Shown here piece by piece: positions 1 to 33,582 of a stretch of 37,100 nucleotides of DNA; positions within the stretch are counted from its first letter, which is position 1; each line of letters opens with the position of its first letter. A program made the position numbers and the translations under genes. The stretch is taken from the NCBI GenBank assembly GCA_009602735.1, contig WELA01000395.1:205199-242298 (forward strand), read 5' to 3'. The notes under the pieces were generated by a model, which saw only the letters and a program-made list of their open reading frames with translations, had not been told where the DNA came from and ran no database searches. Source of the stretch: Mesotaenium endlicherianum (lineage: Eukaryota).

Positions 1-2528
1 ATCCACGCCCGCGCGCCCTGCGCATGAGCGCAGGATGATCAGCACTCCTAACGCCGCGTTTTTGGATAATTCGCAGGGAATCGTGCTCGTCAACACCCAG
101 GCGCCGCAGCGCATCATGTTCGACACAGGAGCGCAGCCGGTTCTCATCAGCCTCCGCTACTTCCGCCAGCTAGGACTCTCTTCTGCTGACTTGGAGGACT
201 CTCCGACGCGCATTAACACCGCCGCCGGCACGTTCGAGACCGTCGCCGGCCGCACGAGGTTGGCGCTACTGTTCACTCTGCGCCCACGCACAGCTGACGA
301 GACAACCATCCATCGGCACGCACTCGTCACTCCTTTCGAGTCCTTTGATGTGCTCCTAGGGCAAGACGTGCTCTTTCCCATTGGCGCCGCAGTCGACAAC
401 TGGACAGAGCGCGTCTTCTATCGTCCCGACTGGAGGACAGGGGGGACGCGCACCGCATCCTTGCCCCTTGACATTGTCGATCGCCGCCCAGCAGTGTCCG
501 CTCTTTATGGCTTCATGGGGCTGGACGATGGCCGGCCAGTGGTCAAGACCGGCCGGCCAGTGGTCAAGACCGCTAAGGACGGGCCTGAGTACGAGGAGAT
601 CTCTGTGGGGGTGGACCTGCTCGAGTCACAGGACAAGGAGCCGGACCTACCTAGTGCCGAGCTCCATCTCACGCCGCAGCAGCAGGCGGATGTCCTAGCC
701 GCCCAGGCCAGGGAGCAGATCCGCATCTGCACTGCCCACAGCGCGATGATGCGGCAAATGGCGGACGATGCCACTGAGGCCCTCGCCACGGCCAGCACAG
801 CCATCGCTGCCGCCGCCCTTGCTCGCGGTGCGGTCGCAGCGCCTACGGCTCATCAGGGAATCTCGGCCTCTCGAGGCGAACCGTCCGCGAGGACCGACGT
901 CCGCGTTCGCCACGACGTGCCTGTTGGCGTGGCCATTCAATACAGTATGGACTCTCAGCCGCCCCCGCACGACGCCTCGCATCAGACCGGCGAGACCTGG
1001 CCTCGCCCCACTGCATCCGAAGACGAGGCCATGCGGCAGGCAGCTTATCCTGGCAGATCCGACGACCAGTCCCTCAAAAATGAGGAGGAGACGCAGTGGG
1101 AACGACTGCCAGAGGCTTCCGTCGAGGTCCTCAGAGCGGCGCCACCCGAGGACACCCCGCCAGCTGCGCCTACGGCACGCAGGCAGCGCACACCTACTGG
1201 TCCGCCCGGCTTCAGCGCACCCAGCCAGCCCATGACTCACGACTCGCCCAGCAGGGCTCGCACCGACGCCGCTGGACCAAGCCGACCAATGTCACACGAC
1301 TGCTCCACGAGCCACGAGTGTCGCCACATCGCGCATTTGTTTGCAACGAGCCATGCCGCCGCGGCCTCCTCTAGCGCTGGCCCACACTCCATACAGCAGC
1401 CAGCGCCCAGGCTCAGCGTCCACGAGCCACACCGCGCGACCCCGTCGATCTGCGCCCATCTGACCTACGCACATCGCACTTGGCCGACCATCGGACCCGC
1501 TCGAGAGACCACCCCTCTCCGCGAGACGAGCCGCTCCCGATCGCTCACACCCCTTTGCGAGACGCGGGAGGTGACTCCCCTCCGCAAGACGCGAGCCCGC
1601 TCCGTCACGCCGCCCTACAACGACAGGGACCGCACACCTCCTTACGACGACACGTGGACCCGCGGGGACACGCCACCATACGACGACACTCGAGACCAAC
1701 GTCGCACTCCGCCCTTCCGGCCCCTCTCAGCTGGCGACAACGCCCAGTCTTCTTCCGAGGCGCATTTTGTGATGCTGACCCCTACAGCTCCGCGCGCCAG
1801 CGTCCCTCGCAGCCACATCGCTGGCGACGGTCCCTCCGGGTCACCTCCTCCCAAGGTGGCCCGCACCGACAGCAGGCCGCCTAGTCGTCACCCATTTACG
1901 GCCGCCGCACGCACACGGCTCATGTCTAGTTTTCGGCAGCCCCGAGACGCGCCCGTCCCACGAGGGCAGCCCTGGCCGCGAGTCCAGCTGGCCCCTCGCC
2001 GGCCAGTTTGATCCCCGCAGGAGGTCGACAGCTCCGAGCGCTCCGTCTGCACAGTCCCTTCTGCAGACATGCGCGCACGCCAGCGGGCCTACTTCGACCC
2101 GCATCCCTACTTGACTCCGCGTCCCGTTCTCGACCAGCTGGACCACGCGGCCTCGCACCAGACTGACCGCGCCCAGCGCGACAGGTGGCAGCAGCTGTGC
2201 GTGGCCTCGGCCCGACGTCAGGCCCGCACTGTCTCTCCCACAGCCCTGCAGGATGCGCGCCTGCGGTGGCGCACCTACCAGAACCACGCACGGGGGGAGC
2301 GTCCGCAGCCGCTCACTGACCGCATCCCCAGCCTTACGCGTGACTACGCAGACCGTGCTGTGGCCGCCCTCCGTATGGCGCCACATCAGCACAGCGCCGA
2401 GCGTACCTTCCCGCCGCCCGCTCAGCCCGGCACCCCTGCCGTGGGGTGTCGCCCACTTCCGACTCCTATCTGCGCAGACGCTCTAGACGAGCGNCTGCGC
2501 AGACGCTCTAGACGAGCGGCCTGGCGGC

Positions 2529-3476
2529 GTCGTCCTCGTTGAGCTCTTTGCCGGCATCGCCACCGGGTTACTTGCGACCTTACAGGCCGGCATCCCGGTG
2601 CGCCGCTACGTCTACGTCAATCCCGATCCTGAGGCCCAGCAGGTGGCTCGTCGGCAGATGGCGTTGGGCCACGAGCGGTTCCCTGACCTCCTTCCCGCGC
2701 ACGCATTCCGCCGCGCTCAAACAGACTAGCCCATGGACATCCGCGACGTCACCGTCGAGCATGTCACCCGACTTGGGCCCATTGATCTCGTCATCGCCGG
2801 TTGGGAGTGCCAGGGCTTCTCCAGAGCCGAGCGTGGCAGGGCGCTCCGCAGTCCCCGCACGGCCCTCTTCTGGCACTTGCTCCGCGTCCTCAACATTGTT
2901 GAGGATCGCCAGCCGCCACACACACTCACGTGAGTCCTGGAGAACGTGGCCGCGCGCCACAATCCCCGTCCCGATGTAAGCGCCGACTTTGCTCTTTGCA
3001 GCAGCTACATCGGCCGCGAGGCCGTCATCGTCACTGTCCAGATTGGTTCCTTCGCGCACCGCGTCCGCGCCTACTTCACAAACCTGGCGATGCCAGGTAC
3101 TCTCGAGGCGTTGGCCGCCTCTCATCCACGTCACACACGCACCGTCGACTCCATCCTCGATGCCCCTCGTCTGGCCCAGCGCGTGACGGCGCTGTCGCAT
3201 CCCTCCATGGCGCAGTGTGAGGTCCTGCATGACGTCACTCGCGCGCTGCCAACTTTTGTCAGTCGCTACGACAGCGACGCCTTCGTCGGAGATCAGCGCG
3301 GGATGGTCATCGACCTGGAGACTGGCATGTTTGACAGGCCACGCCCTGCAGAGATGGAGCGTGCCATGGGCTTCCCGCCGCATCTCACGCAGGTGGACGG
3401 TCTCACTGAGGTGAACCGCATTCGCCTCTTGGGGCAGGCGTTCGACGCCAACGTCCTCACGTGGATTCTGCTGCAT
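2529..3476 (+). pseudogene. C5 cytosine DNA methyltransferase domain (DNMT3-like) embedded in the retrotransposon pol
   Basis: Manual translation shows, in order: motif I VLVELFAGIATG (ELF at 2541), DIRDV, motif IV IDLVIAGWECQGFS (Cys 2808), motif VI VLENV (ENV 2940-2948), motif VIII SFAHRVRAYFTN (~3048-3083), motif IX EMERAMGFPPHLT (3351-3389) and motif X RIRLLGQAFDANV (from 3417). Two in-frame stops (2727, 2931). Confidence 0.92.
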
Positions 3477-6340
3477 ACGCAAGCCTTGGCGCCTCTCTAC
3501 GCCGCAGCCCGGCATCCCGAGCTACCTCGACCTGCCGATGATATGGACGATGACTCCACCGACGATGACAATCAGACCCCGCCAGGCACGACGTGGCATC
3601 CTCAGCGCGCAGGGCCTGCACCACCAGCGCGCACCCGCCCCCCCTCCCCACCGCCGCGCGGGGAGGACTCTGGTTCGCTGGGGGGGGGCCGGCGGAGAGA
3701 GGAGTCCTCACAGCGACCCAGGGAGTCCCAGTCACCTGTTCTTTTTCCTCGCTCACAGGCAGACGGTGACAGGCAGCTGGCCGCAGCTCCCACAGTGCAG
3801 GTACCCGCGGCAGGCCGAGCGCCAACCGCTGCAGGGGAGGTGACACCTGCAGCACCACAGTCTACCCCAGCGGCAAAACAAGAGACTCCAGCTGCAGGCC
3901 AGGCGACGCCACCAGCTCCACCGATATGGAAGCTTGGGGGGACACTCACCAAGGCACAGGCTGCACAGTTGACGGCACTGCTGGATGGGAGGCGCAGCAC
4001 CAGCTTTGCCAGCGGCATGCACGATCTCGGGCGCTACAGGGGGGACCCCATGCGGATTACTCTCACGTCGCAGGAGCCCATTTTCCTGAAGCGTTACCGC
4101 TACAGCCACTTCGAGGATGGCTTGATCAGCGCGCAGACATGCAAGCTGGAGGACAGCCGGCTCATTCGGGAGTCCTCCTCTCGCTATGCCGCACCCACGG
4201 TCATGCCAGCCAAGAAGGATGCCTCGGGCAACTGGTCCGAGAAGAGGATGTGCGGTGACTATCGTAGGCTGAACGAGGTCACCAAGCAGGACAGATATCC
4301 TATGCCGACGCCTGACGAGATCTTTGATGACATTGGCACGTGCACTTGGTTCTCAGTGCTGGATCTGCGTCAGGGCTTCAACCAGATTCCCATCGCCGAG
4401 GAGGACCAGCATAAGACGGCGTTCTGGGGAGCACAGCGGCTCTACGAGTGGGTGGTGATGCCGTTTGGGTTGAAGAACGCGCCAGCTACCTTTCAGAGGG
4501 TGATGNCCGCGCCAGCTACCTTTTAGAGGGTGATGGACAAGGAGCTGGCCGGGCTGTCCTTTGCCCGATGCTACATCGATGACGTGCTCGTCTTCAGTCA
4601 GACGTTTGAGGAGCACGTGGCGCACATCACTGCTGTCCTGGACCGCTTGGAGGCCGCTGGGCTCAAGTGCCATCCAGGCAAGTGCACTTTTGGGACCCGC
4701 GAGGTGGAGTACCTTGGCCACCTGCTCTCCTCCAGCGGCTTGGCACCCCAGCTGGCGAAGATCTCGGCCATCACAGGCATCCCACCTCCTACAGATCTCT
4801 CGCAGCTCCGGGCCTTCCTCGGCATCGCCAACTACTATCGCCGCTTCGTGCCAGGGTTCAGCAAGCTAGCCAAGCCGCTCAACGACTTGCTCCGCAAGGG
4901 CGTTGCCTACGTATGGGGACCAGAGCAGCAGGCGGCATTCGATAAGCTCAAGGAGCTGCTGGTGAGCGCTCCTGTGCTTCGGCGTCCTGACTACGCGAAG
5001 CCCTTCATCCTCCACACCGACTGGTCGCAGGCAGGGCTGGGCGCTGTGCTGGTGCAAGAGCATGACGGCTTCGAGCATGTGGTGGCCTACGCCAGCCGCA
5101 GCAACAACCGCGCGGAAGGCAACTATGGCTCCTACGAGGGGGAGTGCCTAGCAGCCGTCTGGGCGATCGTGCACTTCAGGCACTATCTCTACGGCACGCA
5201 CTTTCGCCTGGTCACCGACCATCAGCCACTTAAGTGGCTCATGACGTCGGAGCGCTTGACCGGCAAGTACGCACGGTGGGCGCTTATCTTGCAGGAGTAC
5301 ACCTTCGACGTGCACCACCGTCCAGGCTCGACCAACCTGGATGCTGACGGTCTCAGCCGTAACCAGCTGCCCTCCTCGAGGGATCTCACTGTTGCCCGCC
5401 ACGATGAGGATGAGCCGGTAGCCTGGCACGCGGCGGCCTTCCTGGCCTTCACCACGGACGGCGAGGTGCGACCCGCAGGGCTCACTAGCCTAGACTTGGT
5501 GATGATTGAGCACATGTCCAAGAGGATCGAGCTCGTGCCCTTGCCCAGCAAGGCCAGTGAGGGGATCGCTCAGGCCTTCCTCAATCAGGTCCTTAGCCGT
5601 TTTGGCGGCTGCGCTGAGGTGCTGACCGACCAAGGCAAGGAGTTCCAAGGCAGCTTTCAGAAGCTGCTGGAGCGCTCTATGATTGACCACCGCACCACCT
5701 CCCGCGATCATCCTCAGGCTGACGGCCTTGCCGAGCGCATGGTGCAGACCGTCAAGCTAGGGTTGCGAAAGTACTGCCTTGCCCACGACCGTACCTACTG
5801 GGACGACGCCCTCCCTTGGCTGGCGATGGGGTACAGGTTCAGTAAGCAGGCCTCCCTGGCCTCGCACTCTCCCTACTTCCTTCTCTACGGCCGACAGCCC
5901 ATCCTGCCAGCAGCAGCCAGGACTGTGGCCGAGAACGTCTTGGACTTGGACAGTCCCGAGACATGGAGTGCTCTTATCGGGCAGCGTGCTCAGCTCTTTC
6001 GGCGCCTGATGCCCATGGCCATGGATAACCTCAGCATCGCACAGCATCGCGACACATTGAGGTACGCCATGACTCGTGGAGGAGCCTATCATCCCCGGGT
6101 GTTGCAGTTTTCCGCAGGTGACTTCGTGTACCTGCGACGCCAGACAAAGAACACCCTCGATACCAGCAGCTCGTCGGTCATCCTGCGCGTCAAGCGTGCC
6201 TTGGCGTCAGGCGTCCTGGAGCTGGAAGGCGCAGATGGCGGTCTTCACAAGGACCACACAAGAACTGTGGGCCGTGCCACCTTCCTAACCTGGACTTGCA
6301 GGTCCGTCCCCGCGACGCGCGGCCGCCCAAGGACTGGGCG

Positions 6341-6475
6341 TGCCAGATCTGTCACAACACTGGCCAGGAGGCCAAGATGCTGCTTTGCGACAGTTGCAAC
6401 CTCGGCTTCCACATCGGCTGCCTCGACCCGCCGCTGGCCCGCGTGCCCGCTGACGACTGGTTCTGCGAAGACTGC
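6341..6475 (+). other. PHD finger (C4-H-C3) at the integrase C-terminus
   Basis: CQIC...MLLCDSCNLGFHIGCLDPPLARVPADDWFCEDC; all eight zinc ligands present with canonical spacing. Confidence 0.95.
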
Positions 6476-6521
6476 ACTGAGCTAGCCTTAGGTAGCGTAC
6501 ACAGCCCATCAGCTAGAGGCT

Positions 6522-6538
6522 GAGAGCTGGGGGGGGAA
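6522..6538 (+). promoter_or_regulatory. Polypurine tract (plus-strand primer) of the Gypsy element
   Basis: GAGAGCTGGGGGGGGAA at and just after the pol stop codon. It is followed by TT rather than a canonical TG LTR start. Confidence 0.6.
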
Positions 6539-6639
6539 TTAAAACATTTGACGCTTGACTCCCTTTTTGGCTATAAGGCCATTTGTATTATAGACTTCAT
6601 TGCAGCAAAGCCTGCTTGTCTATTGTGTGTTGCTTATGC

Positions 6640-7188
6640 CGACAAGGCGCACCCGATCTCTTAACGCACGACAACTCCCAGACCAAGGGCCGCCGTGTGG
6701 ATATTGTCTGCATGGCGAGAGAGTCGGCGGCGCGCACATTGCTGGATGTGGTTGTGGCCAATCCTCTCGAGGGTGGTATCGTGGAGTTGGCTTCATCTAC
6801 AGTAGGGGTGGCGGCGGCGATCAAGGAGAAGGCCAAGACTCTCAAGTACAGCGACACTCCAGTCGGCGACACCTTTGTCTCACTAGCGCTGGAGGTTTTT
6901 GGGACATTAGGCACCAAGTTCCACGACTTCCTCAACCTTTGCGCTGAGCGCACAGTCCCCCTCAGCTTCAGTGTCTCTAGTGACGATGCCGGTTACAGGG
7001 ACTTGGTCAACGCGATCAAGCGAGAGTACCGCCAGCTAGTCGATTGTAGTCTACAGAGAGCTCAGGCTTCTACCATTCACGAGCGTGCAGCTAGTGCCCT
7101 ATCTAGGACTGTGCATCGACCCCCAGTACCTCTCGTTTCATTTTCCCTTGCTGATGCCTTAGCAGTTCTCGGTCCTCGCGGTCTTTAG
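6640..7188 (+). mobile_element. 5'-truncated non-LTR retrotransposon fragment with a restriction-like endonuclease (RLE) domain, CRE/NeSL-like
   Basis: RRVDIV...LLDVVVANP...AAAIKEKAKTLKY...FVSLALEVFG...CSLQRAQA follows the R(P)D..D.V..P...E..K..KY...E..G...S.LQR pattern of RLE-clade LINE C-termini. No RT is retained; the 5' boundary is approximate. Confidence 0.8.
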
Positions 7189-8629
7189 TAGATGAGTATG
7201 GACCTTCATGTTATTTCGGAGCTCGCTCCCATTTAATTAATTCATACGCCTTTTTTTTTTCCTTAAATGAGTTGGGTGGGATCTTCAAGCGTCTAGATGA
7301 TTGTCGCGACCGACAGTCATTGACGGTTTGACGCGTGTAGCGGAAGTCAAGGCGAGTCAAGGTACAATGCGTCGACCACAAGAGACCAGGGTAGGAGGAC
7401 CTCTTTGAGGTCAATCCAGAACCTAGGCCTGCTATATATGGACTAGTATATTTGTATATAAGTTGCGATATTTAGAATCTAATTTTATTTTCAAAAACAT
7501 CAATGTGTAATGGTGTGGTGAGATATATTGACTCCTGAGCTCTGAAGTGCGTCCAGGACACGACAAGGCTTGGCATCTTCGAGAATTCCAAATTCCTACA
7601 TCCTTTGACTCGTACTTGTGTGCGACCATGACATTCCTTTGGGCCGCTTGCAGCCATTATTGCTCCACGTTTCCTTCACTTCTTGTCCGATCAAGTTCGT
7701 CACGTACTTCCTCTTGGAAGTTTCATTCTTGACAAGATTTTAGTATCGTCAGAGAACGTGACAACTAGTCAAAAATTCCTTGGCACGCAATGGTCAACGC
7801 CGTCGACCGAAGAGACAGGTATTAATGGCTTCCAGCCAGCTTCCAGCAACTTCAAGAGAAGCTTGTGATGACGGGTGGCAATAACAAGTGACGCAGCTGG
7901 TGCAAAGCTGGTGATCGGAAGACTGAAGCCGGCCAGTAGATGGCGCCTGAGGCCACGAAGTTACCGGAATGATTCTGCAAAATTAGATATAACACGTCTT
8001 ATGAAGGCGACAGGTGGGACCTGTGTCACACCAACCAACTCTTGTAGCGGCTGATGAAACAGCCGTATACTTCCAAAACAGCATTCGTCATGCTTCATCT
8101 GTCGGTAGTCAATATGGCAGATGGCAGGGCCTGAGCGCCTGTTGAGAAACAGCCGATTGACAGGCTGCTTCTCGTGCCAGCTCTACAGGCTGCAGGCTGC
8201 TGCAGGCCACTCCAGGCCGAGGGCCACCGAGGGCGACGATGATCGTCTGCTAGACGCGCCGTTGTAGACTTTCGTGTAGATATGTCCGAAGGTTGTGCTG
8301 AGTCGACAGCTAGCGGCAATCAAATGCATTAAGGTCCCACTTGGTGTCTGTCTTTGACACTCTTCAACGTCTCAGAACTACTTGGTGCTACCTGTAGCTA
8401 GCTGTACCTGGCAACGTTACGCAGCTGCATAGCCAACTCCTCTGCCATCTTTCATGAGCTGGTAATCATCCGTCTTAGCGCGGTCCAATATTAGAGCAGG
8501 TACCGTAGGAAAGATTGTTAACAGTGGAACAATTTCTACAGCAGCGGCACTGTCTGATTTGTCTAAAGCGGCCTAAGAACTTAGATTTACGTATCTCGTA
8601 TCCCCGCGAGAGTTTAGACGTTGGTCGCA

Positions 8630-11313
8630 ATGGGTGCCGATTGGGAGCCGAAACTGACAGTAAAGCTGCCTGTAAAAGCACCGAAGCAGGTTGCTGTTGA
8701 AGAACTTATCCAGCCAAGGTCCAGTGGCGATGACCTTGTCAAAAAGGCGCTCGCGAAGACGGGTTACGTGGTTGGTACTAGACTTGTGACGGATACAGGA
8801 AATATAAGGGACAGATTCAAGTTTGGGAAAGAGCTTGGCAGAGGTCATTTTGGTATCGTGAAGGTTTGCGAGGATCTTGAGACGGGAAAGAAATACGCCT
8901 GCAAATCAATACTGAAAGCCAATTTGAAGGTCAGTAGCATGCTATTGCTACAACTTTGGATGTGCCATGACTTTGTGGTGTCACATCATGAAAAAAAGTT
9001 GTTATGGAAGCTTTTGAGTTGTTTAGTATGTGATCCATCTTTTACGTATACTGCATGTACAATATTGCGACGTTGATTTGACTTCGTCATTTCAAGCCTC
9101 AGAGATGTTTCATATTTTGATTTGGTCTGTCTTCACCATGTCCTTTTGGCGTTCCTCACAAGGACTTCTATGCTCTGGAAGGACCTTGTTTTGTAGCCCC
9201 ACTGCAGTCCAGTATCGAAGTTAATATAGTGATGGCTGCGAGTCAAATGGAAGGAGTGTGTGTTCTCCGACTGTCAACGAGGGCTGTTTTGTCATTAGAA
9301 GGGGATGAAGCAGGGCCAGCATAATTTTTTTTGTTTGGCAATGGGTGCATAGTGTAGGAAGGTTCATGTCATGGTTGTAAGTATGCACCCACATGACCTA
9401 CTGCCTTTGCTTGACTCCATGTCATGTTTTGTTATGCCTCGCAGAAAAGGGAAGAGTTGGATGAGTTGCGAGCTGAAATTGAACTTATGAGGCATTTGAA
9501 AGGGCATCCACACATTGTTGAGATGCATGCTCTCTTTGAGGATAAGGAGGCTGTCCACCTTGTCATGGAGCTGTGTAAAGAAGGTGACCTCTTTGATTAC
9601 ATTGCCAGGAGGAGAAGACTAGTTGAAGGAGATGCAGCCCGCATTTTCAGGTATGCCATTTTTGCGTATGATGTATCTATGTGTTTGCTCAATAGTCTTT
9701 TGATGGTTTTATGTGCTGTAATTGTACGCGCAGTCCCTCTCTTGGCAATATGCATTTGTGTTGACATTCATTTTCTTACCTGTTGTCACTATGCAGGCAA
9801 ATCGTACTAGCTGTGCAACATTGTCACGCTAGAGGGGTTATTCATCGAGATTTGAAGCCTGAGAACATCATCTTTGAGGAAATCGGTGACGAGTTCCAGG
9901 ATCCTCTTGTGAAGGTTGCCGACTTTGGGCTTGCAGTAATGCCAGAGCCTGGGCAAAAAGCATCAGGGTTGGCAGGAAGTCCATTTTACATGGCTCCTGA
10001 ACTTGTGAGACGGGAGAAGTATGGTACTGAAGTTGACATATGGAGCATGGGTGTTGTGCTTTACACTGCCTTATCAGGTATAGAGAGGCACTATTTGTTG
10101 CATTTCATGACTCCGTTTTTTGGATAACCTCAGTGTTGGTACTTCGTTTTTGCATGTATGTGCAACATGCTATATATTGCATATGATGAGGGGTCTGATT
10201 GGGTAGCTTGGTAACATTGTTGCTAGCACTTATTGTGGGAGTGAGAGTGGTCACTCACAGGAGATGTGTATGTAGTGCAAGGTTGTCATTGCCAGCTTTG
10301 GTGGCTTCAGTTGAAGGGCACCATTGACTGCAGTTCGTAATATTGTTTATTGATAAATTTATGTGTTTTGTCGATGTGCAGGCTTCTTGCCTTTCTGGGG
10401 CAAAGACCATGAGCAAACTTTTGCTGCAGTTCTGAAGGCTGAGCCAGATTATCTGAAGAAGCCATGGCCCTCGGTATCCAGGGAAGCAAGGAGGTTAGTG
10501 CGATGGATGCTTCATGTAGATCCTAAGAGGCGCGCTACCATAGATGACATCTTGAGTAATCCCTGGTTGATGCAGCACTGTAGTCCCACAAAGGCCAAGG
10601 AGCAGCCTTCCAAATTCTCCTTTCTTTCAGGCAAAGGTGGTGCAGCGGCAGTCGCGCAATTGCCGACTCCTCCGGCTAGTCCCAATCCTCTTTCTGCCAG
10701 AGCAGTGGGTGCTATACAACCAATCCCTCCGTTTAAGCCCTCACATCAACGCGTTCCCACCCCTCCTTGTACGAGCCCATCTGCGTCCGGGGTTGGATAT
10801 GTTATCGCTGGGCCTGGACCTGCTACTGACATTCCTGTACACAATCAGGCAACATATGATCCTGTTCCACCTCCAACCATTGCACCACCTTCTCCTTCCA
10901 GCAATAGCTTCCTTCAGAAGTTATCTAACCTACATCCTTTTGGGCAAGCTGCCCCTAAGGCACAGTATGGTGGAACGCCCCCTGCCTCACCACGTTCTCC
11001 CAAGACGCCTACGTTTGCCTTTGGGAAGAAGAATCTATATGCGCTCTTTAACTCGCAGCCGCAGGAGGCACCCAACAGGCATGAGCTTGTCATGCAGAGG
11101 CCTATTGACAAGCTCAAGGGAGTTATGCCTGCTGAGGAGTTCATACCCCACAACAGTCCGAACTCCTCACCTCCCCACAAACCTGGTGCCTCTGCACTGG
11201 TTGGAAAGTCATTTCACAGGATGGAAAGCCCCAGATCGCCCCTGGAGGAGTCCATTTTCCCTATGTCGCCGAAGTTGAGAAATTATGGCTATGAAGGTAA
11301 AGGAGGTTGCTGA
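8630..11313 (+). CDS. CAMK-group Ser/Thr kinase, PEPKR/CDPK-related, without EF-hands; exons 8630-8929, 9445-9650, 9797-10077, 10382-11313 (572 aa)
   Basis: LGRGHFGIV, ACK, HRDLKPEN, ADFGLA, GLAGSPFYMAPE, DIWSMGV. Three GT-AG introns with matching phases (0, 2, 1). Pro/Ser-rich C-terminal tail. Confidence 0.93.
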
Positions 11314-12711: not shown

Positions 12712-15435
12712 CTAATATTTGGTCTTTGCAGGGTCGTTGGGAAACTGCCTGAAGTTAATGAAAGGGGCCCACAGCAAGAGCCTGCACACCATCAATATCG
12801 GTGTATACAAACAAATATCAATACATCAAGATAATTAGCACGGTATGAACATGTGCCCCGCAACCAGGTGCCCACACCCGACTTACACGTCATTCTCCTG
12901 TATATTCCAAATTATGAGCCCCAATGGACACGTCACCAAAGAAGTCACGGCAGGACGCCAGGTGGCTGCCATCTGGTCGCAGAAAGTCAGCAAAAGGTGC
13001 AACTCCGATGAGAAACTTCACCCACTCCAATGCTACAGCAGGGCGACGAGGCTTCAAAGAGCTTTCCTGCGACTTCGAAACCTCGTCTCAACATCTAGCG
13101 TGTCATTCAGATTCTTTGCCCAAAGCCTACACCGAACCTCCACCCATACCTGACCACAGCCTACCTCACAGCCTTCCCTCATTCCCAAGCCTAGACCAGC
13201 TCTAAGGCTAGTACCTGTACAGCATCACCAGCTACCTCTTAACGACAGCCCAAACGTCCAATGTCATTAATCAGAGAAGGATCAGAGCGGAGGCAGGAGG
13301 CCCGGGATTTGGCCCACACGAAGGCCTAGCCCCATCCCCATCTCAAGCCTGCCCCACCAGCATGCTGAATCTGCCCCAACCGCGTGCAAAGTTGACCTCA
13401 GACCTCAGATTTCACCTCAAATCTGAGCCAGCCCCAGAATAGGTCTGGTTCCGAGGCTATTTTCCATTGAGGGGGGCGAGGCGAGGAGGGGGTAAGTTGG
13501 GGGGNNNNNNNNNNNNNNNNNNNNNNNNNNNNNNNNNNNNNNNNNNNNNNNNNNNNNNNNNNNNNNNNNNNNNNNNNNNNNNNNNNNNNNNNNNNNNNNN
13601 NNNNNNNNNNNNNNNNNNNNNNNNNNNNNNNNNNNNNNGGGGGGGGGGGGGGGGGCAACGTACGCTGGGAAGCAGAGGAAGACAAACATGAACTGGAAGT
13701 ACGTCTCCAGGGTGCCCCTCTTGTACCAGCGCACGCGCAGGTAGTTGTACACCAGAGGCTGCTCGCCAGCACACATGCACGCACGCACACACACATGCAC
13801 GCACACGCACACGCACCCACAGGAGTAGAAGACAGCATCAGGGCTTTGGTGCATGCGGCGTAAGATTCCTAGTGCTTGTCGGTTCCCAGTGCTCGTAGGT
13901 CCTAGGGCCCCATGGTCCAAGTGCAGGCAAAGGGAGAGGTACACACGCACATCAACATGCACATGCACATCCACACGCACACACACATGGACAGAGACAG
14001 CTGTGCCCAAGGAGCTGACACTGGCCGCACATTGAGCTATTTATTGCAGACGCCTGCGAACCACCTGCTGACGAGCGCACGCGCACGCAGGGTTGGGAGT
14101 CCCGGGCTCCCTTGGGGTTGCGGCCCACGATTCAGGCAAGTGCAGATGGGGTTGCGGCCCCCACAGGCACTCCTTCGCGGTTTCAAGAGAGGAAAGAGTA
14201 AGAGCGGACAAGCTGAACACGACGACTGCCGCCGATTGCCGAAAACTCTTTGCGTTTTTGCAGGAGGGGGGCAGGGCTTGAAGGTTGGATTGAGCGAGCG
14301 CCAAGGTGGTTCGGATACGGGTTTGAAGAGGTGCCGAGCTCAAGAGATAGGATTGGACTGACGTCAGAGCTTGGGTGCGTGTGCGTGCAGGCTGCTCTGG
14401 AAGAGGGTTGGAAGAGGCCAGGTAACCCCTAGGGCTCCTTTGAGGATAAGAGAACAAGGGCTAATCACTTCTGGCAGGCCTTCTTTGAGAGAGTTTTTGA
14501 AAAAGAGAGAGTTCGACAAATCCGCGGGCACAGAGAGAGCTTGGAGCAGTCACAAGCGGGTGCATGCTGTCGTCTACATCTGCCACGCCATCGCCGTCGA
14601 CTTCAAACATACTTTTCTCATGAGAGTAGTTCCGACACGCCCTGATCTGCAGCAGAATGCAGTCAGCACTGCGGGGAGCGTGGGCCTGCCCCTTGTGACC
14701 CCCCGCTTGCGTCACCACTAATCGTTTGCGCCACCACTCAAAGTTTGGGCCCCACCACTCAACGTTTGTGCCTCACCACTCAACGTTTGCACCATCACCA
14801 AGCATTTGCATCACCACTAACATGCGGGACTGGCACGTGCTCAAGGGCAGTCGACCAAAGGGGAGGAGTTCAAGCCTGACCTAAAGTACGAGAGAAATGC
14901 ACGCATGGCATGGGTGAGGGTGTGCGGTATATTGAATATCACAATCACACGTCATCCGTTTTCTGCCGATCGTGAACCAGGACAGGGAAGGGAAGGGGAA
15001 GGGGCTTTGGGGCATCACAAAGAATGCGACGGAGCAAGGGGCAGGAAAGCGGAGGACCTTTTGGGCAGCACCAAAAAAGTGGCCGAGGGGGAAAAGAGTA
15101 AGAAGGGGCTTACGTGCAGTATCCACGAGTCTAAAGTTGAATGAGAGAAGAGAATGGACGAGAGCAGCCACGGGCAGGCAAAAACTGTAACAAGTCGTGG
15201 GAGAGAGGGGACGAAGGCAGTGCTCTTGCGGGCAGCGAAAATAGAAAGCGACACAATGGGGAGTGGCCAGGGAAAGAAGACAAGGAGAGGAAGGAGGTGC
15301 TTACGGGCAGCACAAACAAGTAGACAAACACTACGGCGCCAAAGGCAAGCACGGAGTCCACGAACTCGGCATCTGTCAGCTGCCCGTCCACCGCGTCTGC
15401 CAGCGCGGGCGCGCAGCTCACCAGCGCCTGCCACG

Positions 15436-15512
<77 letters not shown>

Positions 15513-15548
15513 NNNNNNNNNNNNNNNNNNNNNNNNNNNNNNNNNNNN

Positions 15549-15602
<54 letters not shown>

Positions 15603-17502
15603 TTAAAGATATGGTTATTGCAGGCTATAGAACGAATCATGTATAAACACGTGTTCTTCAGTGATTGGTGCGCAGCTTGCCAGCACCTGCCACGCACAGA
15701 GACAGAGAGAGAGAGAGAGAGAAGCACACAAGTAAAATTCGATACCTGAACAGCAAGGCCGAGGAACGCGCAGCCGGCTACCGTTGCGCCGCTTGGCAGC
15801 CCGGCTGGCTCTCCAACCTGCGCAGAAGAAGGCAGAGAAAAACTCAAGTCAACAATTACAGCCCGGTCAACCGGCCCAGTAAACTTGCCAGTCAACTGGG
15901 TCAACCGAGTAGGCTCCGCTGGGCTCCACATAACAAATGGCAGGCTTCTCAGTCGCTCGAGAAAAGAAAGGAGTCTGCCACTTGTAATGCAGCAGCAAGT
16001 TAGACTCACAAACGGCAGCTTAGCTAAGCGCCACATGTCCTTCTGAGGCCAGCTCAGCCTCTGGCAGAGAAGTCCTTTTAATGCTCTCTTTCTCAATGTG
16101 ACCTTAGCCACATGCGCAAACAACAGTCCCCTCCCCTTTTTCGTCCTTCTGTAGCAAACATTGGCCATGCCACACGTATCGTACCCTCTTGCTACTGTCT
16201 TGATCTTTTAACTCGTCCCCTCCGATGCTGTGCCCCTTCACCTTTCCCCTCTGCCTCCTCTTTCCTCTATTCCCGTCTCCCAAGACCTCCACTCACAACT
16301 CTAGGTCTCACCAAGCACAAGACCAAAGAACGGCCGAGGGTTCTGCCATTCTGAACATGAATGTTAGCATGACACTGTAATGTGTTGTTGCTGTCCTCCC
16401 TTTCCCCCTCTCCCCCCCCCCCCAACCCCCCACCTTCCTCATCTTTCCTGTCGCAAGTGTACAATGTGCATAGAAGTTTCCATACTGTACAAACCAAGGG
16501 AAACGTCGTCAATACAGCACTCAGAGGTCTTCTGTGTACGTTACCAAACAGTCGAGTTACATGTTTCTCCCCACACCACAACTCCTCCGCACCCCCTTCC
16601 TGCCGCCGTTCTGCCCCCCCCAGCCCCTCTCGCCCTAAGACTGGCGGAGGGCACTAGAACCTCCTCCTTGCTTTTGCTTCTCAGCAGGTGTCAAGAGGGT
16701 CTGCAATAATGTGAATCACTTCCTACCTCAGCAGCAAGCCTTTCTTCGTTCTCTGGTAGAGCCTGGGCTGCAATGGTCACGCGTCCAGTAGCAGCAGGCT
16801 CGCTGTGCATCCTCGTCTGCAGCCCTAACGTGTGACCTGTTGCAGCAGCAGCAGCAGCAGCAGCAAAAGCAGGAGGAAGAAGAGGTCGTGAAGAAAAGGC
16901 CACATTAGCAAAGGCAAAGACAGAGATGGAGAAGGAGGACGGTGAAATGCAGGCGGAGAGGTAAGATCAAGAGGGAGAAGTGGTGGTGTAGCAGGTCCCA
17001 TATTACCCCAAAGCGGCTGTTTAAATTGGCTATCAACTGAGATAGGGTTTACTTGCATGTGATGTGCCGTATGTGAAAGGCGCCTCATTCACCATAGACT
17101 AGGAGCAATAACAGGATCCAGTGACTACTGCCTTCTGAAGATGCTGCGACCTCGGCAGAATGCAACTGCTGGAATAACATTACAGTACACTGTCAACCGT
17201 AAGGGGAACGTCTAGCTTCGGCTGTGGTGAAGATGATCTCGTACAGGTATAGGTGATCTCATACCGGTGCCAGGGTCTAACATTTAGGGTCAAAATCTCG
17301 GTACAGAAAGACAAAGCTGTTAAAGCAAACCCAAGGATGGCGTACCAGAGCATCTTCGAAGACTTCTTACACGCAGCCCGGATACTCGGAAGCTCACAGC
17401 TCCTGACGAGCTTTTCACTTGTCTCGATTCACCGATGGAGTTTGTTCCCTTCAAGCTGAGCCCACCAATCAGGCTGCATTGTGCAAGACTACATGCAGCC
17501 AT
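12712..17502 (-). CDS. ndhL: Chloroplast NDH complex subunit L. Confident exons 15817-15746, 15427-15305, 13758-13664, 12781-12712; probable 5' exons 17502-17346, 16836-16727, 16102-16010
   Basis: The spliced product YLFVLP|PLVYNYLRVRWYKRGTLETYFQFMFVFLCFPA|LLLWAPFINFRQFPNDP matches plant NdhL/CRR23. Splice phases are consistent. The first exon MAACSLAQCSLIGG...RVRSLRRCS is Ser/Arg-rich like a transit peptide. The 5' exons are less certain. Confidence 0.88.
14713..14820. repeat. Degenerate ~19-21 bp tandem repeat (CACCACTCAACGTTTG core) in an ndhL intron
   Basis: About five to six consecutive CACCAC...TTTG units. Confidence 0.75.
15439..15600. repeat. (AG)n microsatellite with an internal N gap
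   Basis: Perfect AG run on both sides of the gap; on the minus strand it forms the polypyrimidine tract of an ndhL intron. Confidence 0.98.
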
Positions 17503-17990: not shown

Positions 17991-18468
17991 CGTCTACTGT
18001 TGGGTGAACGACGCAGGGTGACGTACTCTGCACGGAAAGCGGTAAGCTTGGCAACAGTAGGTCAGAAGAATACTTGGACCGTCATACGGACGCGATGTGA
18101 GCAGGACCTCACATGGTTACACATAAGCGGTCAACGTAGTCAATCTGAATCAGTGCATTTGGGCGGCCTGAGCAGGCATGGCGGGCATGAGGTTTGATGA
18201 GTTCCAACTTTCAGAGAGGTGGTCAACAGCGGTATGCTATGACCCACTAATTATATGGCCCCATCTGGCCCAATCTGGCCCCATCTGTTGCGCAAAGTGG
18301 GATGCAGGCATGATGCAGGCGTACGCCGGCGGTTCCTTTGCGTACCTCATGGCTACAGGGGAGTGTACCATTCAAATTAAATATAGATGTATTTTTACTT
18401 AATTTGCATGCGTGACAGCAGCTTCTGGGCGACGTTGAAATAACATCCATGTAGTGGTTCGTCATCGG

Positions 18469-18840
18469 CGGGGACGCAAAACTGGCTTCAAGTGGGGGGC
18501 ACGCTAACTCCTGCTTTTGGGGGAACGCTAATTATATATAGTGGACTTTTAGTCGGGGCACGCAGGTTCGAGTTTGGGGGCACGCAAAACTTGTTTCAAA
18601 GTGGGGGCACGCAGAATCCGGATTTTGGGGGAACGCAAAGTGGACTTTGATCTATATATGTATATAGTGGGAGCATACATGCATGCAAGATTCAGGTTTG
18701 GGGGCACGCAAAACTGGCTTCCAGTGGGGGGCACGCAAAATCCGGTTCTTGCAGGAACGCAAAGTGAACTTCTACTCGGGGCACGCAAAGTTTGGGTTGG
18801 GGGCACGCAAAACTGGCTTTAAGTGAGGGGCACGCAAAAC
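18469..18840 (+). repeat. Array of about 13 GGGG(C/A)ACGCAAA motifs with higher-order periodicity, probably DNA-transposon subterminal repeats
   Basis: The motif mostly recurs every ~22-27 bp, with recurring spacers AACTGGCTT..AGTG, AATCCGG and AAGTGGACTT. Confidence 0.8.
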
Positions 18841-19814: not shown

Positions 19815-22505
<2,691 letters not shown>

Positions 22506-24402: not shown

Positions 24403-25821
24403 ATGGCGGCTGAAAATAGCAATATGACGTTGGATATTAGTGCCGCTGCCTCTGGCGGTTGTCTCGCTCTGCACGCAATGCAGAGAACGCTAGTTGCCTT
24501 AATTAGCAACAAATCACATATCAGTCAACCAGAACACGACCTGCCTGTGTATGGCCCACCCACTCTGCTCAAATAGCAACGGACTGCAATTCTAGCCTCG
24601 TCCGTTGCGGGCTTGTTGGTTGTTGTCAATTCGATCATGGATGAATCCAGCGAGCTGGACAATAAGATCAATGACCTTTTTCGCACAGTCAACACTAGTA
24701 TGTGGTACATCAAGCCTCGCTCTACCCACTGGCATCACTTCATGAAAGAAGTGGTCGCAGAAGAGGATCCAGCCAGTTGGGCTCATCATTTTCGGGTCAC
24801 TGTTCCATTCTGGAGGAAACTCTGTCAGCAGTTGCATGACAAGATGGTTACTCACACACCTGAGTCTTTCTCCCTCATAGATAACAGAGTTATCGATGTG
24901 CAGACAATGGTTCTTGTAGGCTTGTCTAAGTTTGCCACTGGAATGTCCTACAAGTGGTTGTCGACTTGCTTTGGACTTGGCAAGTCTACCGTCATTAGAA
25001 TTGTGGACAAGTTTGCCACTGCCATATGTGAGGAACTAGGCCACAACCTCTCCATGCCACGCGAGGGACAGGCATTGCAGGATGCTATAGAAGCTAATTT
25101 TGCAGTGAAGGGTTTTCCTAATTGCGTTGGTGCCTTAGATGTCACCCACATCCAGATTCAGCTGCCTAACAATGTAGATGCAAGGGCATACATTGACAGG
25201 AACAAGAACTATAGCATCTCCCTACAGGCAGTGGTAGGCCAAAGTGGCCTCTTCTTTGACTGCAATGTTGGCTGTGTGGGGTCGATGCACGATGTGCGCA
25301 TTCTCCGGCGCTCGTACCTATGGGCACAAAATGCAGGGCATAACAGAATGTTCAGGGGACCCGCTATACGCATTGGGGATGTGGATGTTCCCCCATTCAT
25401 CATTGCAGATGGGGGATATCCCTGTGATCATTGGCTGGTTGTTCCCTTCCGTGAGAGCTTGCGCAACCCCCTCACTCAGCAGCTCAGAGATTTCAATTCC
25501 GCCCTCTCTTCCACTCGCATGATAGTTGAGAGGGCATTTGGGACTCTCAAGCAGACATGGCGCATGCTTGGGGGTAGAGTAAATCAGCCATCTGCAGTTG
25601 GCCGCCTTGAGCGTCAGATTTGTGCTTGCTGCATTCTGCACAACATGATGATACTTGAGAATGTAGACCCCTTGTTCTACGAGCGCCAAGAAAGGGGAGA
25701 AGATATTCTGATGCCTGAGCCGCAGCCGCAATTTGTCCCCTTTGGCCCCCCTGGAGATGAATTTGAGCATATTCTTGAAGATCAGGTTGCAGGGACAGCC
25801 TTAAGGGAGGCTATTTTTTAA
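24403..25821 (+). pseudogene. PIF/Harbinger (HARBI1/ALP1-like) DDE transposase
   Basis: NCVGALDVTHI, NYSISLQAVV, GSMHDVRILRRS, IIADGGYP, TRMIVERAFGTLK, CACCILHN. An in-frame ATG at 24403 is followed by a premature TAG at 24574; the catalytic part 24613-25821 is open. Confidence 0.92.
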
Positions 25822-33332: not shown

Positions 33333-33582
33333 CACACCGAAATGGGGAGTACGCAAGAAGAGTTGGCTGAGGTACGTGAAACGAGACGCCGTGGGGTACG
33401 CGAGAAGAGATGGAAGGGGTACGCGAAGGGAGACGCCGTGCGGTACGCGAGAAGAGATGGCAGGAGTACGTGAAGGGAGATGTACGCGAGAAGAGATGGC
33501 AGGGGTACGTGAAGGGAGTCGCCGTGGGTACGCGAGGAGAGATGGCAGGGGTACGTGAATTAGGAGGCAGGGGTACGCAAAG
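33333..33582 (+). repeat. Array of about 11 GGGGTACG(C/T)GA motifs; two more copies at 23628-23660 on the other side of the Harbinger
   Basis: Units alternate GTACGCGAGAAGAGATGGCAGG and GTACGTGAAGGGAGACGCCGTG. Confidence 0.85.

What the first reader, a model, noticed from the sequence alone, without database searches (positions are those of the whole stretch)
2529..6523. Writer plus reader in one polyprotein: DNA methyltransferase and an integrase-fused PHD finger of probable H3K4me0 type
Seen: a complete PHD finger sits where chromoviruses carry a chromodomain. It has GFH rather than the WFH aromatic-cage Trp typical of H3K4me3 readers, and the LLCD..C..FH..CL.PPL..VP..W pattern of AIRE/BHC80/CHD4-type fingers. 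Established: those fingers bind unmethylated H3K4, as does the DNMT3 ADD domain. Inference: the element may rebuild DNMT3 logic, integrating into H3K4-unmethylated chromatin and laying down its own methylation. This is the best candidate here for an undescribed system.
Basis: partly seen in the sequence, partly recalled or inferred. Interest (0 to 1): 0.88.

Follow-up and report, generated by a model that had tools for sequence, protein, structure and literature searches.

The report
Retrotransposon pairing DNMT3 with PHD reader
A broken copy of an algal jumping gene carries both a DNA-methylating enzyme domain and a zinc finger predicted to read unmodified histone tails; the pairing is the rule across a large green-plant family whose methyltransferase was already described, and the finger likely steers where new copies land.

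Summary
The domains are real; this copy is dead. Order: protease, DNMT3-like C5 methyltransferase, RT, RNase H, integrase, PHD. The copy has two MTase stops, about 150 aa lost from integrase and a frameshift before the PHD. The N at 4506 is an overlap join inside RT, bridged by contigs of 4 of 8 runs, so this is no inter-family chimera. Relatives carry everything in one ORF, and 52 of 56 MTase-selected proteins that reach the integrase end carry the PHD. It belongs to the published Gypsy-DNMT3 kind (de Mendoza 2018); the Klebsormidium family also has the PHD. The finger lacks the me3 cage (0 of 100) and keeps H3A1 and H3R2 pockets, so it likely reads unmodified H3; K4-contacting acids are only partly conserved. 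ADD-like coupling is unshown: the domains lie about 1,070 aa apart, each also occurs alone, and the element is not CpG-depleted. Side finding: a chlorophyte branch places the MTase beside integrase and adds a Tudor-like plus predicted adenine-MTase tail. The scan noted this pairing three times before on other DNA.

The parts
86..373 (+). Retroviral-type aspartyl protease (frame 2); the element runs off the window's 5' end, so Gag and the 5' terminus are not held
   Evidence: Pfam gag-asp_proteas E 1.3e-7
600..2469 (+). GC-rich low-complexity linker between protease and MTase, shared by other copies
   Evidence: translation; covered by contigs of X1, X5, X12
2470..2518 (.). Scaffold join at N2494 with a duplicated overlap (assembly artefact); accounts for the apparent frame change between protease and MTase
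   Evidence: 25 letters left out at 2470 in contigs of X5, X12, X8, X9, X10
2520..3500 (+). DNMT3-like C5 cytosine methyltransferase (frame 3), motifs I, IV (GWECQ), VI (ENV), VIII (HRVR), IX-X present; two in-frame stops in this copy (2727-2729, 2931-2933)
4047..4727 (+). Reverse transcriptase, same frame as the MTase with no N between 2495 and 4505
   Evidence: Pfam RVT_1 in both halves; domain limits from local profiles
4468..4535 (.). Scaffold join at N4506 with a duplicated overlap of about 30 nt (one internal mismatch, so the two contigs may come from sister copies)
   Evidence: direct repeat D9; 30 letters left out at 4495 in contigs of X12, X8, X9, X10; an 829-nt X9 contig spans 4023-4881 with 13 differences
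4914..5300 (+). RNase H
   Evidence: Pfam RT_RNaseH E 2e-37
5496..6257 (+). Integrase, N-terminally deleted (about 150 aa lost near 5495-5500); rest of core and C-terminal domain present
   Evidence: Pfam rve E 1e-8; gap against P0181; loose ends at 5495-5502
6259..6260 (+). Frameshift separating integrase from the PHD in this copy; absent from other copies
   Evidence: a 536-nt X10 contig spans 5933-6467 with 11 differences and 1 gap
6341..6478 (+). PHD finger (C4HC3), predicted unmodified-H3-tail reader; ORF ends at 6523
6521..6537 (+). Purine-rich tract, likely the polypurine tract (inferred from position and composition)
   Evidence: sequence
6537..6673 (+). Terminal repeat segment of the element, ending where other copies run into variable flanks
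   Evidence: loose ends before 6537 and behind 6673 in X12, X23, X24
6674..7253 (+). 3' flank: a different, less abundant repeat resembling the C-terminal endonuclease end of a CRE/R2-type non-LTR element (label recalled, no Pfam hit)
   Evidence: X1 depth about 1,100-1,600 against 69 beyond 7367; no Pfam family

Best explanation
This is a decayed copy of a repeated Ty3/Gypsy retrotransposon of the Gypsy-DNMT3 kind whose family polyprotein runs protease - DNMT3-like MTase - RT - RNase H - integrase - PHD, in which the PHD likely tethers the integration complex to nucleosomes with a free, unmodified H3 N-terminus and the MTase likely acts separately on the element's own cDNA. Shown: domains, order, one ORF in relatives, co-occurrence, co-inheritance of MTase with RT, absence of an aromatic cage. 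Inferred: the protease would cut the polyprotein so that the PHD stays on integrase; binding through H3A1 and H3R2, weakened by K4 methylation, would bias insertions away from H3K4me3 promoters into repeats and intergenic DNA, as chromodomains do for chromoviruses; the MTase would pre-mark new copies so that they match the silent chromatin they land in. The two modules would thus serve one strategy without the physical reader-to-writer switch of animal DNMT3 ADD.
For: PHD in 104 of 120 integrase-selected relatives and in 52 of 56 MTase-selected proteins that reach the integrase C-terminus, out of 150 examined. Uninterrupted ORFs in the window's order: P0209 (2,811 aa), P0181, P0056, P0064, P0017. 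RT tree puts the window with K. nitens KFL_009030040 and Closterium in a 35-row group, SH-aLRT 99, quick tree of 48 rows. MTase and RT trees split the two architectures alike, 0 of 64 rows misplaced, Mantel rho 0.70. PHD of 100 relatives: aromatic at His-2 0, Asp at Cys3+1 91, Pro/Gly/Trp of the A1 pocket 86/78/95; these map to D312, P331, G333, W335 of KDM5A PHD1, which bind R2 and A1 (bioRxiv 715474 passages). The window finger also has Glu at the E305-equivalent place and Asp before Cys1. PDB matches include UHRF1, KAT6A, ATXR5, ORC1B, KDM5A/B PHD1, PHF21A, BAZ2A/B, AIRE, CHD4. A PHD-bearing Chlamydomonas Gypsy inserts intergenically 2.6 times more than chance (PMC9940879 passages). cDNA methylation is the model proposed in PMC5890265. 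This copy abuts another repeat at its 3' end (one case).
Against: No binding, activity or insertion-site data here. 24 of 100 family fingers have no acid at either K4-contacting place, and only 8 of 100 have the second R2 acid. UHRF1, among the best PDB matches, reads R2 rather than K4 (reference titles; indifference to K4 methylation recalled). The element is not CpG-depleted (o/e 0.76-1.10 against 0.43-0.47 in three of four host stretches; a short kinase exon gave 0.88), unlike SymbioLINE-Dnmt. The K. nitens enzyme did not methylate yeast DNA, called inconclusive by the authors. Motif IV reads EC in 85 and PC in 55 of 163 family MTases; the effect of EC is unknown. RNA reads (68 of 6.9 million, 123 of 12.0 million) lie mainly on the 3' end, almost all under 99% identity, with none on the MTase. 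The intergenic bias in Chlamydomonas may be selection, and whether that element belongs to this family was not tested.
Confidence: 0.55

Rival explanations
1. Reader-guided writer: the PHD brings or activates the MTase on H3K4-unmethylated nucleosomes, so the element methylates itself and its flanks at the insertion site, converging on animal DNMT3-ADD logic.
For: Near-constant pairing (52 of 56) kept across two domain orders; in the chlorophyte architecture the MTase lies directly before integrase, so MTase-integrase-PHD could be one product. Catalytic Cys, EN/EH motif VI and RxR are kept in about 148-151 of 163 MTases. Plant and algal DNMT3s lack ADD (PMC12344493 passage), so a histone reader would have to be regained.
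Against: In the window's architecture RT and RNase H (about 1,070 aa in P0181) lie between the domains, and Gypsy Pol is normally cut by its protease (general knowledge). Closterium P0005 and P0223 have the MTase and no PHD; P0106 has the PHD and no MTase. The finger matched no ADD family in Pfam at E<=1. The pairing can follow from shared ancestry alone.
Confidence: 0.17
2. Generic tether plus passenger: the PHD reads H3A1/R2 regardless of K4 and only raises integration efficiency on chromatin; the MTase has an unrelated role (for example shielding cDNA, or acting on RNA), and the two travel together by descent.
For: A1 and R2 pocket residues are far better conserved (78-95 of 100) than K4-side acids (76 of 100 have at least one, no single place above 44 Asp). 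UHRF1 is among the best matches. Losses of each domain exist.
Against: Methylation of K4 weakens or abolishes binding in several cage-less fingers of this class: BAZ2A/B, DPF3b, MOZ (PMC5415848 passages), KDM5A PHD1, where much K4 contact is through backbone carbonyls that need no conserved acid.
Confidence: 0.2
3. The PHD binds something other than H3 (DNA, another host protein, or a protease-generated N-terminus of the element's own proteins), or the MTase is a non-catalytic relic.
For: A PHD that binds something other than a histone mark exists (BAZ1A, search listing only). EC in place of PC in motif IV of the window and most relatives; no activity of the K. nitens enzyme in yeast.
Against: Strict conservation of the A1 and R2 pockets and of the MTase catalytic residues; purifying selection reported for KnitGypsy-Dnmt3.
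Confidence: 0.08
4. Assembly chimera: MTase and PHD come from different element families joined at N4506.
For: The overlap at the join has one internal mismatch, so two sister copies may be stitched; no long read of this locus was available.
Against: The join lies inside RT; contigs of 4 of 8 runs bridge it and a fifth runs into the downstream motif; both RT halves have the same nearest relative, P0002; natural single ORFs have the same order.
Confidence: 0.02

Closest known systems
KnitGypsy-Dnmt3 / streptophyte Gypsy-DNMT3 (de Mendoza et al. 2018, PMC5890265; parts 1-4 of 7 read, supplements searched, figures not visible)
   Same: Intronless DNMT3-like domain inside Gypsy Pol; same order as K. 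nitens KFL_009030040 (protease, MTase, RT, RNase H, integrase); same RT group. K. nitens KFL_005000010, integrase plus PHD, is 79% identical over 361 aa to that protein, so the published family has the finger too.
   Different: Host here is a zygnematophyte; the paper's text never mentions a PHD (0 occurrences in main text and 3 supplement files; Fig. 4c may draw it); motif IV is EC here and PC in the K. nitens protein; this copy is inactive.
EpiLTRs and DAM-LTRs (bioRxiv 10.64898/2026.05.21.726589; passages and parts 2-3 of 5 read)
   Same: An LTR retrotransposon that joins a DNA methyl writer to a chromatin reader.
   Different: The preprint names Gypsy-DNMT3 as a separate capture.
PHD-bearing green-algal Gypsy elements: Gypsy-7a_cRei (PMC9940879, passages) and those of Perez-Alegre 2005 (seen only as a citation)
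   Same: PHD in Gag-Pol of a Gypsy element, proposed to steer insertions; intergenic bias 2.6-fold.
   Different: No MTase is listed for Gypsy-7a_cRei; its relation to this family was not tested.
Chromoviruses
   Same: A histone reader at the integrase C-terminus, shown for MAGGY to target heterochromatin (cited).
   Different: No chromodomain here; the PHD is predicted to read absence of a mark rather than H3K9 methylation.
Animal DNMT3A/3B/3L with ADD domain
   Same: DNMT3-type catalytic domain plus a PHD-class finger without an aromatic cage in one translation product.
   Different: ADD lies next to the catalytic domain and gates it (recalled); here a canonical PHD lies on integrase, C-terminal and far away, with no ADD match.

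Membership tests
Gypsy-DNMT3 (KnitGypsy-Dnmt3 kind) | Ty3/Gypsy Pol order protease-RT-RNase H-integrase | tested here: met
Gypsy-DNMT3 (KnitGypsy-Dnmt3 kind) | Intronless C5 MTase in the Pol ORF | tested here: met
   same frame as RT with no N between; single ORFs in relatives
Gypsy-DNMT3 (KnitGypsy-Dnmt3 kind) | MTase is DNMT3-related | tested here: met
   best PDB matches DNMT3A/B/C (E 2e-14), then DRM, DNMT2, HhaI; no tree with host DNMT3s was built
Gypsy-DNMT3 (KnitGypsy-Dnmt3 kind) | Catalytic residues kept | tested here: met
   Cys of motif IV, ENV, RxR present, with EC instead of PC; the copy itself is stopped twice
Gypsy-DNMT3 (KnitGypsy-Dnmt3 kind) | Groups with the K. nitens element by RT | tested here: met
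   35-row group, SH-aLRT 99 in a quick unrooted tree without outgroup; the careful tree did not finish
Gypsy-DNMT3 (KnitGypsy-Dnmt3 kind) | DIRS-like split terminal repeats | tested here: inconclusive
   5' end outside the window; segment 6537-6673 is preceded elsewhere by a conserved sequence, which would fit but does not prove it
Gypsy-DNMT3 (KnitGypsy-Dnmt3 kind) | Purifying selection on the MTase (Ka/Ks) | not tested
   no whole genome held
Gypsy-DNMT3 (KnitGypsy-Dnmt3 kind) | De novo methylation activity | not testable with these tools
   needs an assay
Unmodified-H3 PHD readers (KDM5 PHD1, BAZ2, AIRE, BHC80, DPF/MOZ PHD2) | No aromatic cage | tested here: met
   His-2 aromatic 0 of 100, Cys1-1 aromatic 1 of 100; cage positions recalled
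Unmodified-H3 PHD readers (KDM5 PHD1, BAZ2, AIRE, BHC80, DPF/MOZ PHD2) | H3A1 pocket (P, G, W) and H3R2 Asp | tested here: met
   86, 78, 95 and 91 of 100; the window has Asp in place of the Gly; mapping
Unmodified-H3 PHD readers (KDM5 PHD1, BAZ2, AIRE, BHC80, DPF/MOZ PHD2) | Acidic residues at the K4 pocket or acidic wall | tested here: inconclusive
   present in the window finger; 76 of 100 relatives have at least one, 24 none
Unmodified-H3 PHD readers (KDM5 PHD1, BAZ2, AIRE, BHC80, DPF/MOZ PHD2) | Measured preference for K4me0 over K4me3 | not testable with these tools
   needs ITC or peptide arrays
Chromovirus | Chromodomain at the integrase C-terminus | tested here: not met
   no Chromo in Pfam scans of the window or of 32 relatives
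EpiLTR | DAM plus DNMT plus chromodomain | tested here: not met
   window has no chromodomain and no trace of a second MTase in six frames
DNMT3 with ADD | ADD domain adjacent to the catalytic domain | tested here: not met
   13 Pfam families at E<=1, none ADD; finger lies on integrase
DNMT3 with ADD | H3K4me0 binding relieves autoinhibition of the MTase | not testable with these tools
   needs biochemistry

The most novel reading that the evidence does not exclude
A Viridiplantae-wide Gypsy lineage has independently rebuilt DNMT3-ADD logic: its integrase-borne PHD picks H3K4-unmethylated nucleosomes and delivers the element's own DNMT3, so each new copy lands in and writes silent chromatin; the chlorophyte branch, with the MTase beside integrase and an added Tudor-like plus adenine-MTase-like tail, is a third, unreported kind of EpiLTR carrying two writers and two readers.
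Probability: 0.2. Interest if true: 0.82.

Novelty: new member of a known kind. Interest (0 to 1): 0.45.

Why it matters
Why retrotransposons keep a silencing enzyme is open since 2018. A reader that travels with the writer in about nine of ten complete cases gives a concrete, testable hypothesis (target choice coupled to self-methylation) and natural controls: Closterium elements without the PHD, P0106 without the MTase, and two domain orders. It also extends Gypsy-DNMT3 from Klebsormidium to zygnematophytes, Mesostigma, liverworts (integrase-PHD part) and chlorophytes, where Pfam often misses the MTase. The window's copy itself is dead and adds little beyond a new host.

Tried and rejected
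Complex prediction of MTase with PHD from relative P0181: no answer, score 0.00 in two runs, alignments not used, partner fold uncertain; not counted for or against. Single-sequence fold of the window PHD: pLDDT 52, unusable, no fold search made with it. Careful RT tree did not finish in two runs; only the quick tree is cited, and it has no outgroup, so one capture plus relocation of the MTase cannot be told from two captures. ESM Atlas did not answer. No whole genome held, so copy number, insertion contexts and Ka/Ks were not measured; summed contig depth shows repetition only. No RNA holder was listed by the index; raw reads were laid instead. The clade-B tail gave no Pfam family below E 0.29 and no meaningful PDB sequence match. 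The Sanchez and Zhou review is not held. Chimera at N4506 rejected at family level. Chromovirus and EpiLTR membership rejected. Searches for a paper that reports DNMT3 plus PHD in one Gypsy element found none; Fig. 4c of PMC5890265, Supplementary Table 6 of bioRxiv 2021.11.30.470311, the Craig 2021 thesis and Repbase entries could not be seen and may already show it. No methylome or H3K4 map of the host was found.
Full report
1. What is in the sequence. Three-frame translation and Pfam give, on the + strand: aspartyl protease (86-373), a long low-complexity linker, a C5 cytosine methyltransferase (2520-3500), RT (4047-4727), RNase H (4914-5300), a partial integrase (5496-6257) and a C4HC3 PHD (6341-6478). 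Read with X at its two stops, the MTase matches DNMT3A best (E 2.4e-14), then DNMT3C/B, DRM and only weakly DNMT2 and HhaI. The copy is dead: two stops in the MTase, about 150 aa missing between RNase H and the integrase core against relative P0181 (28 against 177 residues), and a frameshift near 6259 that puts the PHD out of the integrase frame. A flanking kinase exon is identical to a record of a zygnematophyte alga and a nuclear NdhL lies nearby, so the host is a streptophyte alga.

2. The N at 4506 and the other breaks. Both single Ns (2494, 4506) carry a duplicated overlap. Eight public runs were laid. Contigs of five runs lack the 25 duplicated letters at 2470; contigs of four (X8, X9, X10, X12) bridge 4506 without the 30 duplicated letters, one of them over 829 nt with 13 differences; a fifth (X5) ends at 4505 and runs on into the downstream RT motif. 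Other copies are not stopped in the MTase, carry extra sequence where this copy's integrase is cut, and are not frameshifted before the PHD (an X10 contig spans 5933-6467). Both RT halves have the same nearest relative. One internal mismatch in the 4506 overlap leaves open that two sister copies were stitched, but not two families. The element is highly repeated in X1 (6,435 contigs laid; summed depth is no copy number). RNA: 68 of 6.9 million and 123 of 12.0 million reads, mostly on 5600-6700, on both strands, almost all from other copies, none on the MTase; full-length transcription is not shown.

3. The family. With the integrase as query, 341 proteins passed E 1e-30 and the best 120 were examined: 104 carry the PHD and 26 carry both PHD and MTase by local profiles (many others begin downstream of where the MTase would lie). 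Named members come from Klebsormidium, Closterium, Calypogeia, Marchantia, Haematococcus, Chromochloris and Tetrabaena; the MTase search added Mesostigma and Scenedesmus. In the opposite direction, the MTase found 433 representatives at E 1e-10; of the best 150, 56 reach the integrase C-terminus and 52 of these carry the PHD (these 56 are all of the chlorophyte order, and P0223, an MTase-bearing protein without PHD, fell below the length cut). Two orders exist. A: protease-MTase-RT-RNase H-integrase-PHD (window, K. nitens KFL_009030040, single ORFs P0209, P0181, P0056, P0064, P0017). B: protease-RT-RNase H-MTase-integrase-PHD (Tetrabaena, Scenedesmus, P0214, P0216); a B-type MTase also matches DNMT3A best (E 8e-6). 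A quick RT tree of 48 rows splits them with SH-aLRT 99, and MTase and RT trees of 64 rows agree (0 misplaced, Mantel rho 0.70). Exceptions: Closterium P0005 and P0223 have the MTase without PHD; P0106 has the PHD without MTase. Kin share traits, so the co-occurrence does not by itself show co-function.

4. What the finger likely reads. In 100 of the 120 relatives the finger could be parsed. No aromatic residue stands two before the His (0 of 100; Gly 91), and 1 of 100 has one just before Cys1, so the methyl-lysine cage is absent (cage positions recalled; the principle is stated in bioRxiv 715474 and PMC5415848, passages). The Trp of the common GWH is one place later and is not the cage residue. 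Residues that bind H3A1 and H3R2 in KDM5A PHD1 (P331, G333, W335, D312) are kept in 86, 78, 95 and 91 of 100. The K4 side is looser: 58 have an acid just before Cys1, 48 at the E305/D306-equivalent places, 24 neither; the window's finger has both. PDB matches are mostly unmodified-H3 readers, but UHRF1 is among the best. So 'reads the free, unmodified H3 N-terminus' is well supported by sequence; 'K4me0-specific' is likely but unproven.

5. Mechanism. Shown: anatomy, co-occurrence, co-inheritance, conserved catalytic residues (Cys, EN/EH, RxR in about nine of ten of 163 MTases; EC 85, PC 55). Inferred: after protease cleavage the PHD stays on integrase and biases integration to H3K4-unmethylated chromatin; the MTase marks cDNA, as proposed by de Mendoza et al.. 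In favour of targeting: a PHD-bearing Chlamydomonas Gypsy shows 2.6-fold intergenic bias (possibly selection), and this copy abuts another repeat. Against heavy self-methylation at CG: the element keeps its CpGs (o/e 0.76-1.10) while three of four host stretches are depleted (0.43-0.47), and the K. nitens enzyme was inactive in yeast, a result its authors call inconclusive. Private transitions in this copy lean to CG and CHG; CHG is written by the host CMT in moss (PMC6453930, abstract), which points to host silencing after insertion. ADD-like gating is possible mainly for order B, where the MTase adjoins integrase; in order A about 1,070 aa separate the domains. ADD is animal-specific among DNMT3s (PMC12344493, passage), so any such logic would be convergent.

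6. Relation to what is known. The element meets the tested features of Gypsy-DNMT3 (PMC5890265: parts 1-4 of 7 read, 3 supplement files searched, figures not visible). That paper's text does not mention a PHD, but K. nitens integrase-PHD protein KFL_005000010 is 79% identical to the MTase-bearing KFL_009030040, so the finger is probably an unremarked part of the published family. PHD in retrotransposons is called widespread in PMC6673714 (passages) and in bioRxiv 2021.11.30.470311 (passages; its supplementary table could not be seen). Writer-plus-reader LTR elements are described as EpiLTRs. Five searches found no paper stating the DNMT3-PHD pairing or order B. Three earlier notes of this scan report the same pairing on other DNA; they agree but are not independent evidence.

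7. Side finding. At least 35 of 69 order-B proteins continue past the PHD into a Tudor-like barrel and a domain whose model (pLDDT 78) matches SAM-dependent methyltransferases, best the adenine enzymes METTL5 and M.TaqI, with an SPWF motif where NPPY-type motifs lie (motif equivalence recalled). It has no Pfam or PDB sequence match and is absent from the window. A shared fold shows no function, but such elements would carry two writers and two readers.

8. Verdict. Observation partly confirmed; interpretation partly supported. New member of a known kind, with an under-described reader and a testable coupling hypothesis. Interest 0.45; the bold reading has probability about 0.2 and would merit 0.82.

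Noticed in passing
relatives, e.g. P0096 470-808, P0250 (Scenedesmus sp.), P0075 (Chromochloris); not in the window: Chlorophyte-type elements (RT-RNase H-MTase-integrase-PHD) continue after the PHD into a Tudor-like barrel (weak Pfam PTM_DIR17_Tudor, E 0.29) and a domain with DPWxG...ND...DALQP...SPWF motifs. Its model (pLDDT 78) matches class I SAM methyltransferases, best METTL5 Z 12.5 (rmsd 2.8, 152 aligned) and M.TaqI Z 11.9 (rmsd 3.1, 154 aligned), with many ties near Z 11. Present in at least 35 of 69 such proteins, 0 of 7 of the window's type; SPWF intact in 14 of 85. A predicted second, likely adenine, methyltransferase.
   Followed up: partly
relatives P0234, P0260, P0272, P0070, P0123: A G-patch domain between MTase and integrase in some chlorophyte-type elements.
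   Followed up: no
window 6674-7253: A separate repeat with an open frame resembling the endonuclease end of a CRE/R2-type non-LTR element (recalled motif; no Pfam hit) directly follows the Gypsy terminus, suggesting a nested insertion.
   Followed up: partly
window 6537-6673: In other contigs and RNA reads this terminal segment is preceded by one conserved sequence rather than random flank, which would fit the DIRS-like split repeats reported for KnitGypsy-Dnmt3.
   Followed up: partly
window 295-5471: Of 42 listed transitions private to this copy, 17 are in CG, 16 in CHG and 9 in CHH context against 12.4, 10.0 and 19.6 expected (p 0.004; these are only rows shown by the tool, out of several hundred), as host CG and CHG methylation of a silenced copy would give.
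   Followed up: partly
window 8618-11313 +: Intron-containing Ser/Thr kinase gene; exon 9798-10073 is 100% identical to EukProt jgi/Mesen1/10116 (the code stands for Mesotaenium endlicherianum, recalled), with an 87% paralogue of nearby gene number.
   Followed up: partly
window 13417-14040 -: Nuclear NdhL match (Pfam E 2.5e-10), in line with a green-plant host.
   Followed up: no
window 20987-21649 + and 36334-36825 +: Exons of a cytidine/adenosine deaminase-like gene and of a CAAX prenyl protease; TatC-like match at 15131-16207 -.
   Followed up: no
window 24577-25821 +: Uninterrupted 414-aa DDE_Tnp_4 (Harbinger-type) transposase ORF; 31-nt imperfect inverted arms at 24051 and 33001 might bound it.
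   Followed up: no
window 18456-18839, 33349-33572, 35352-35753: Three arrays of short degenerate direct repeats, unexplained.
   Followed up: no
P0130 (UniRef100_A0A6J4VRQ8): A family RT-integrase protein is labelled 'uncultured Synechococcales cyanobacterium', likely plant DNA in a metagenome bin.
   Followed up: no
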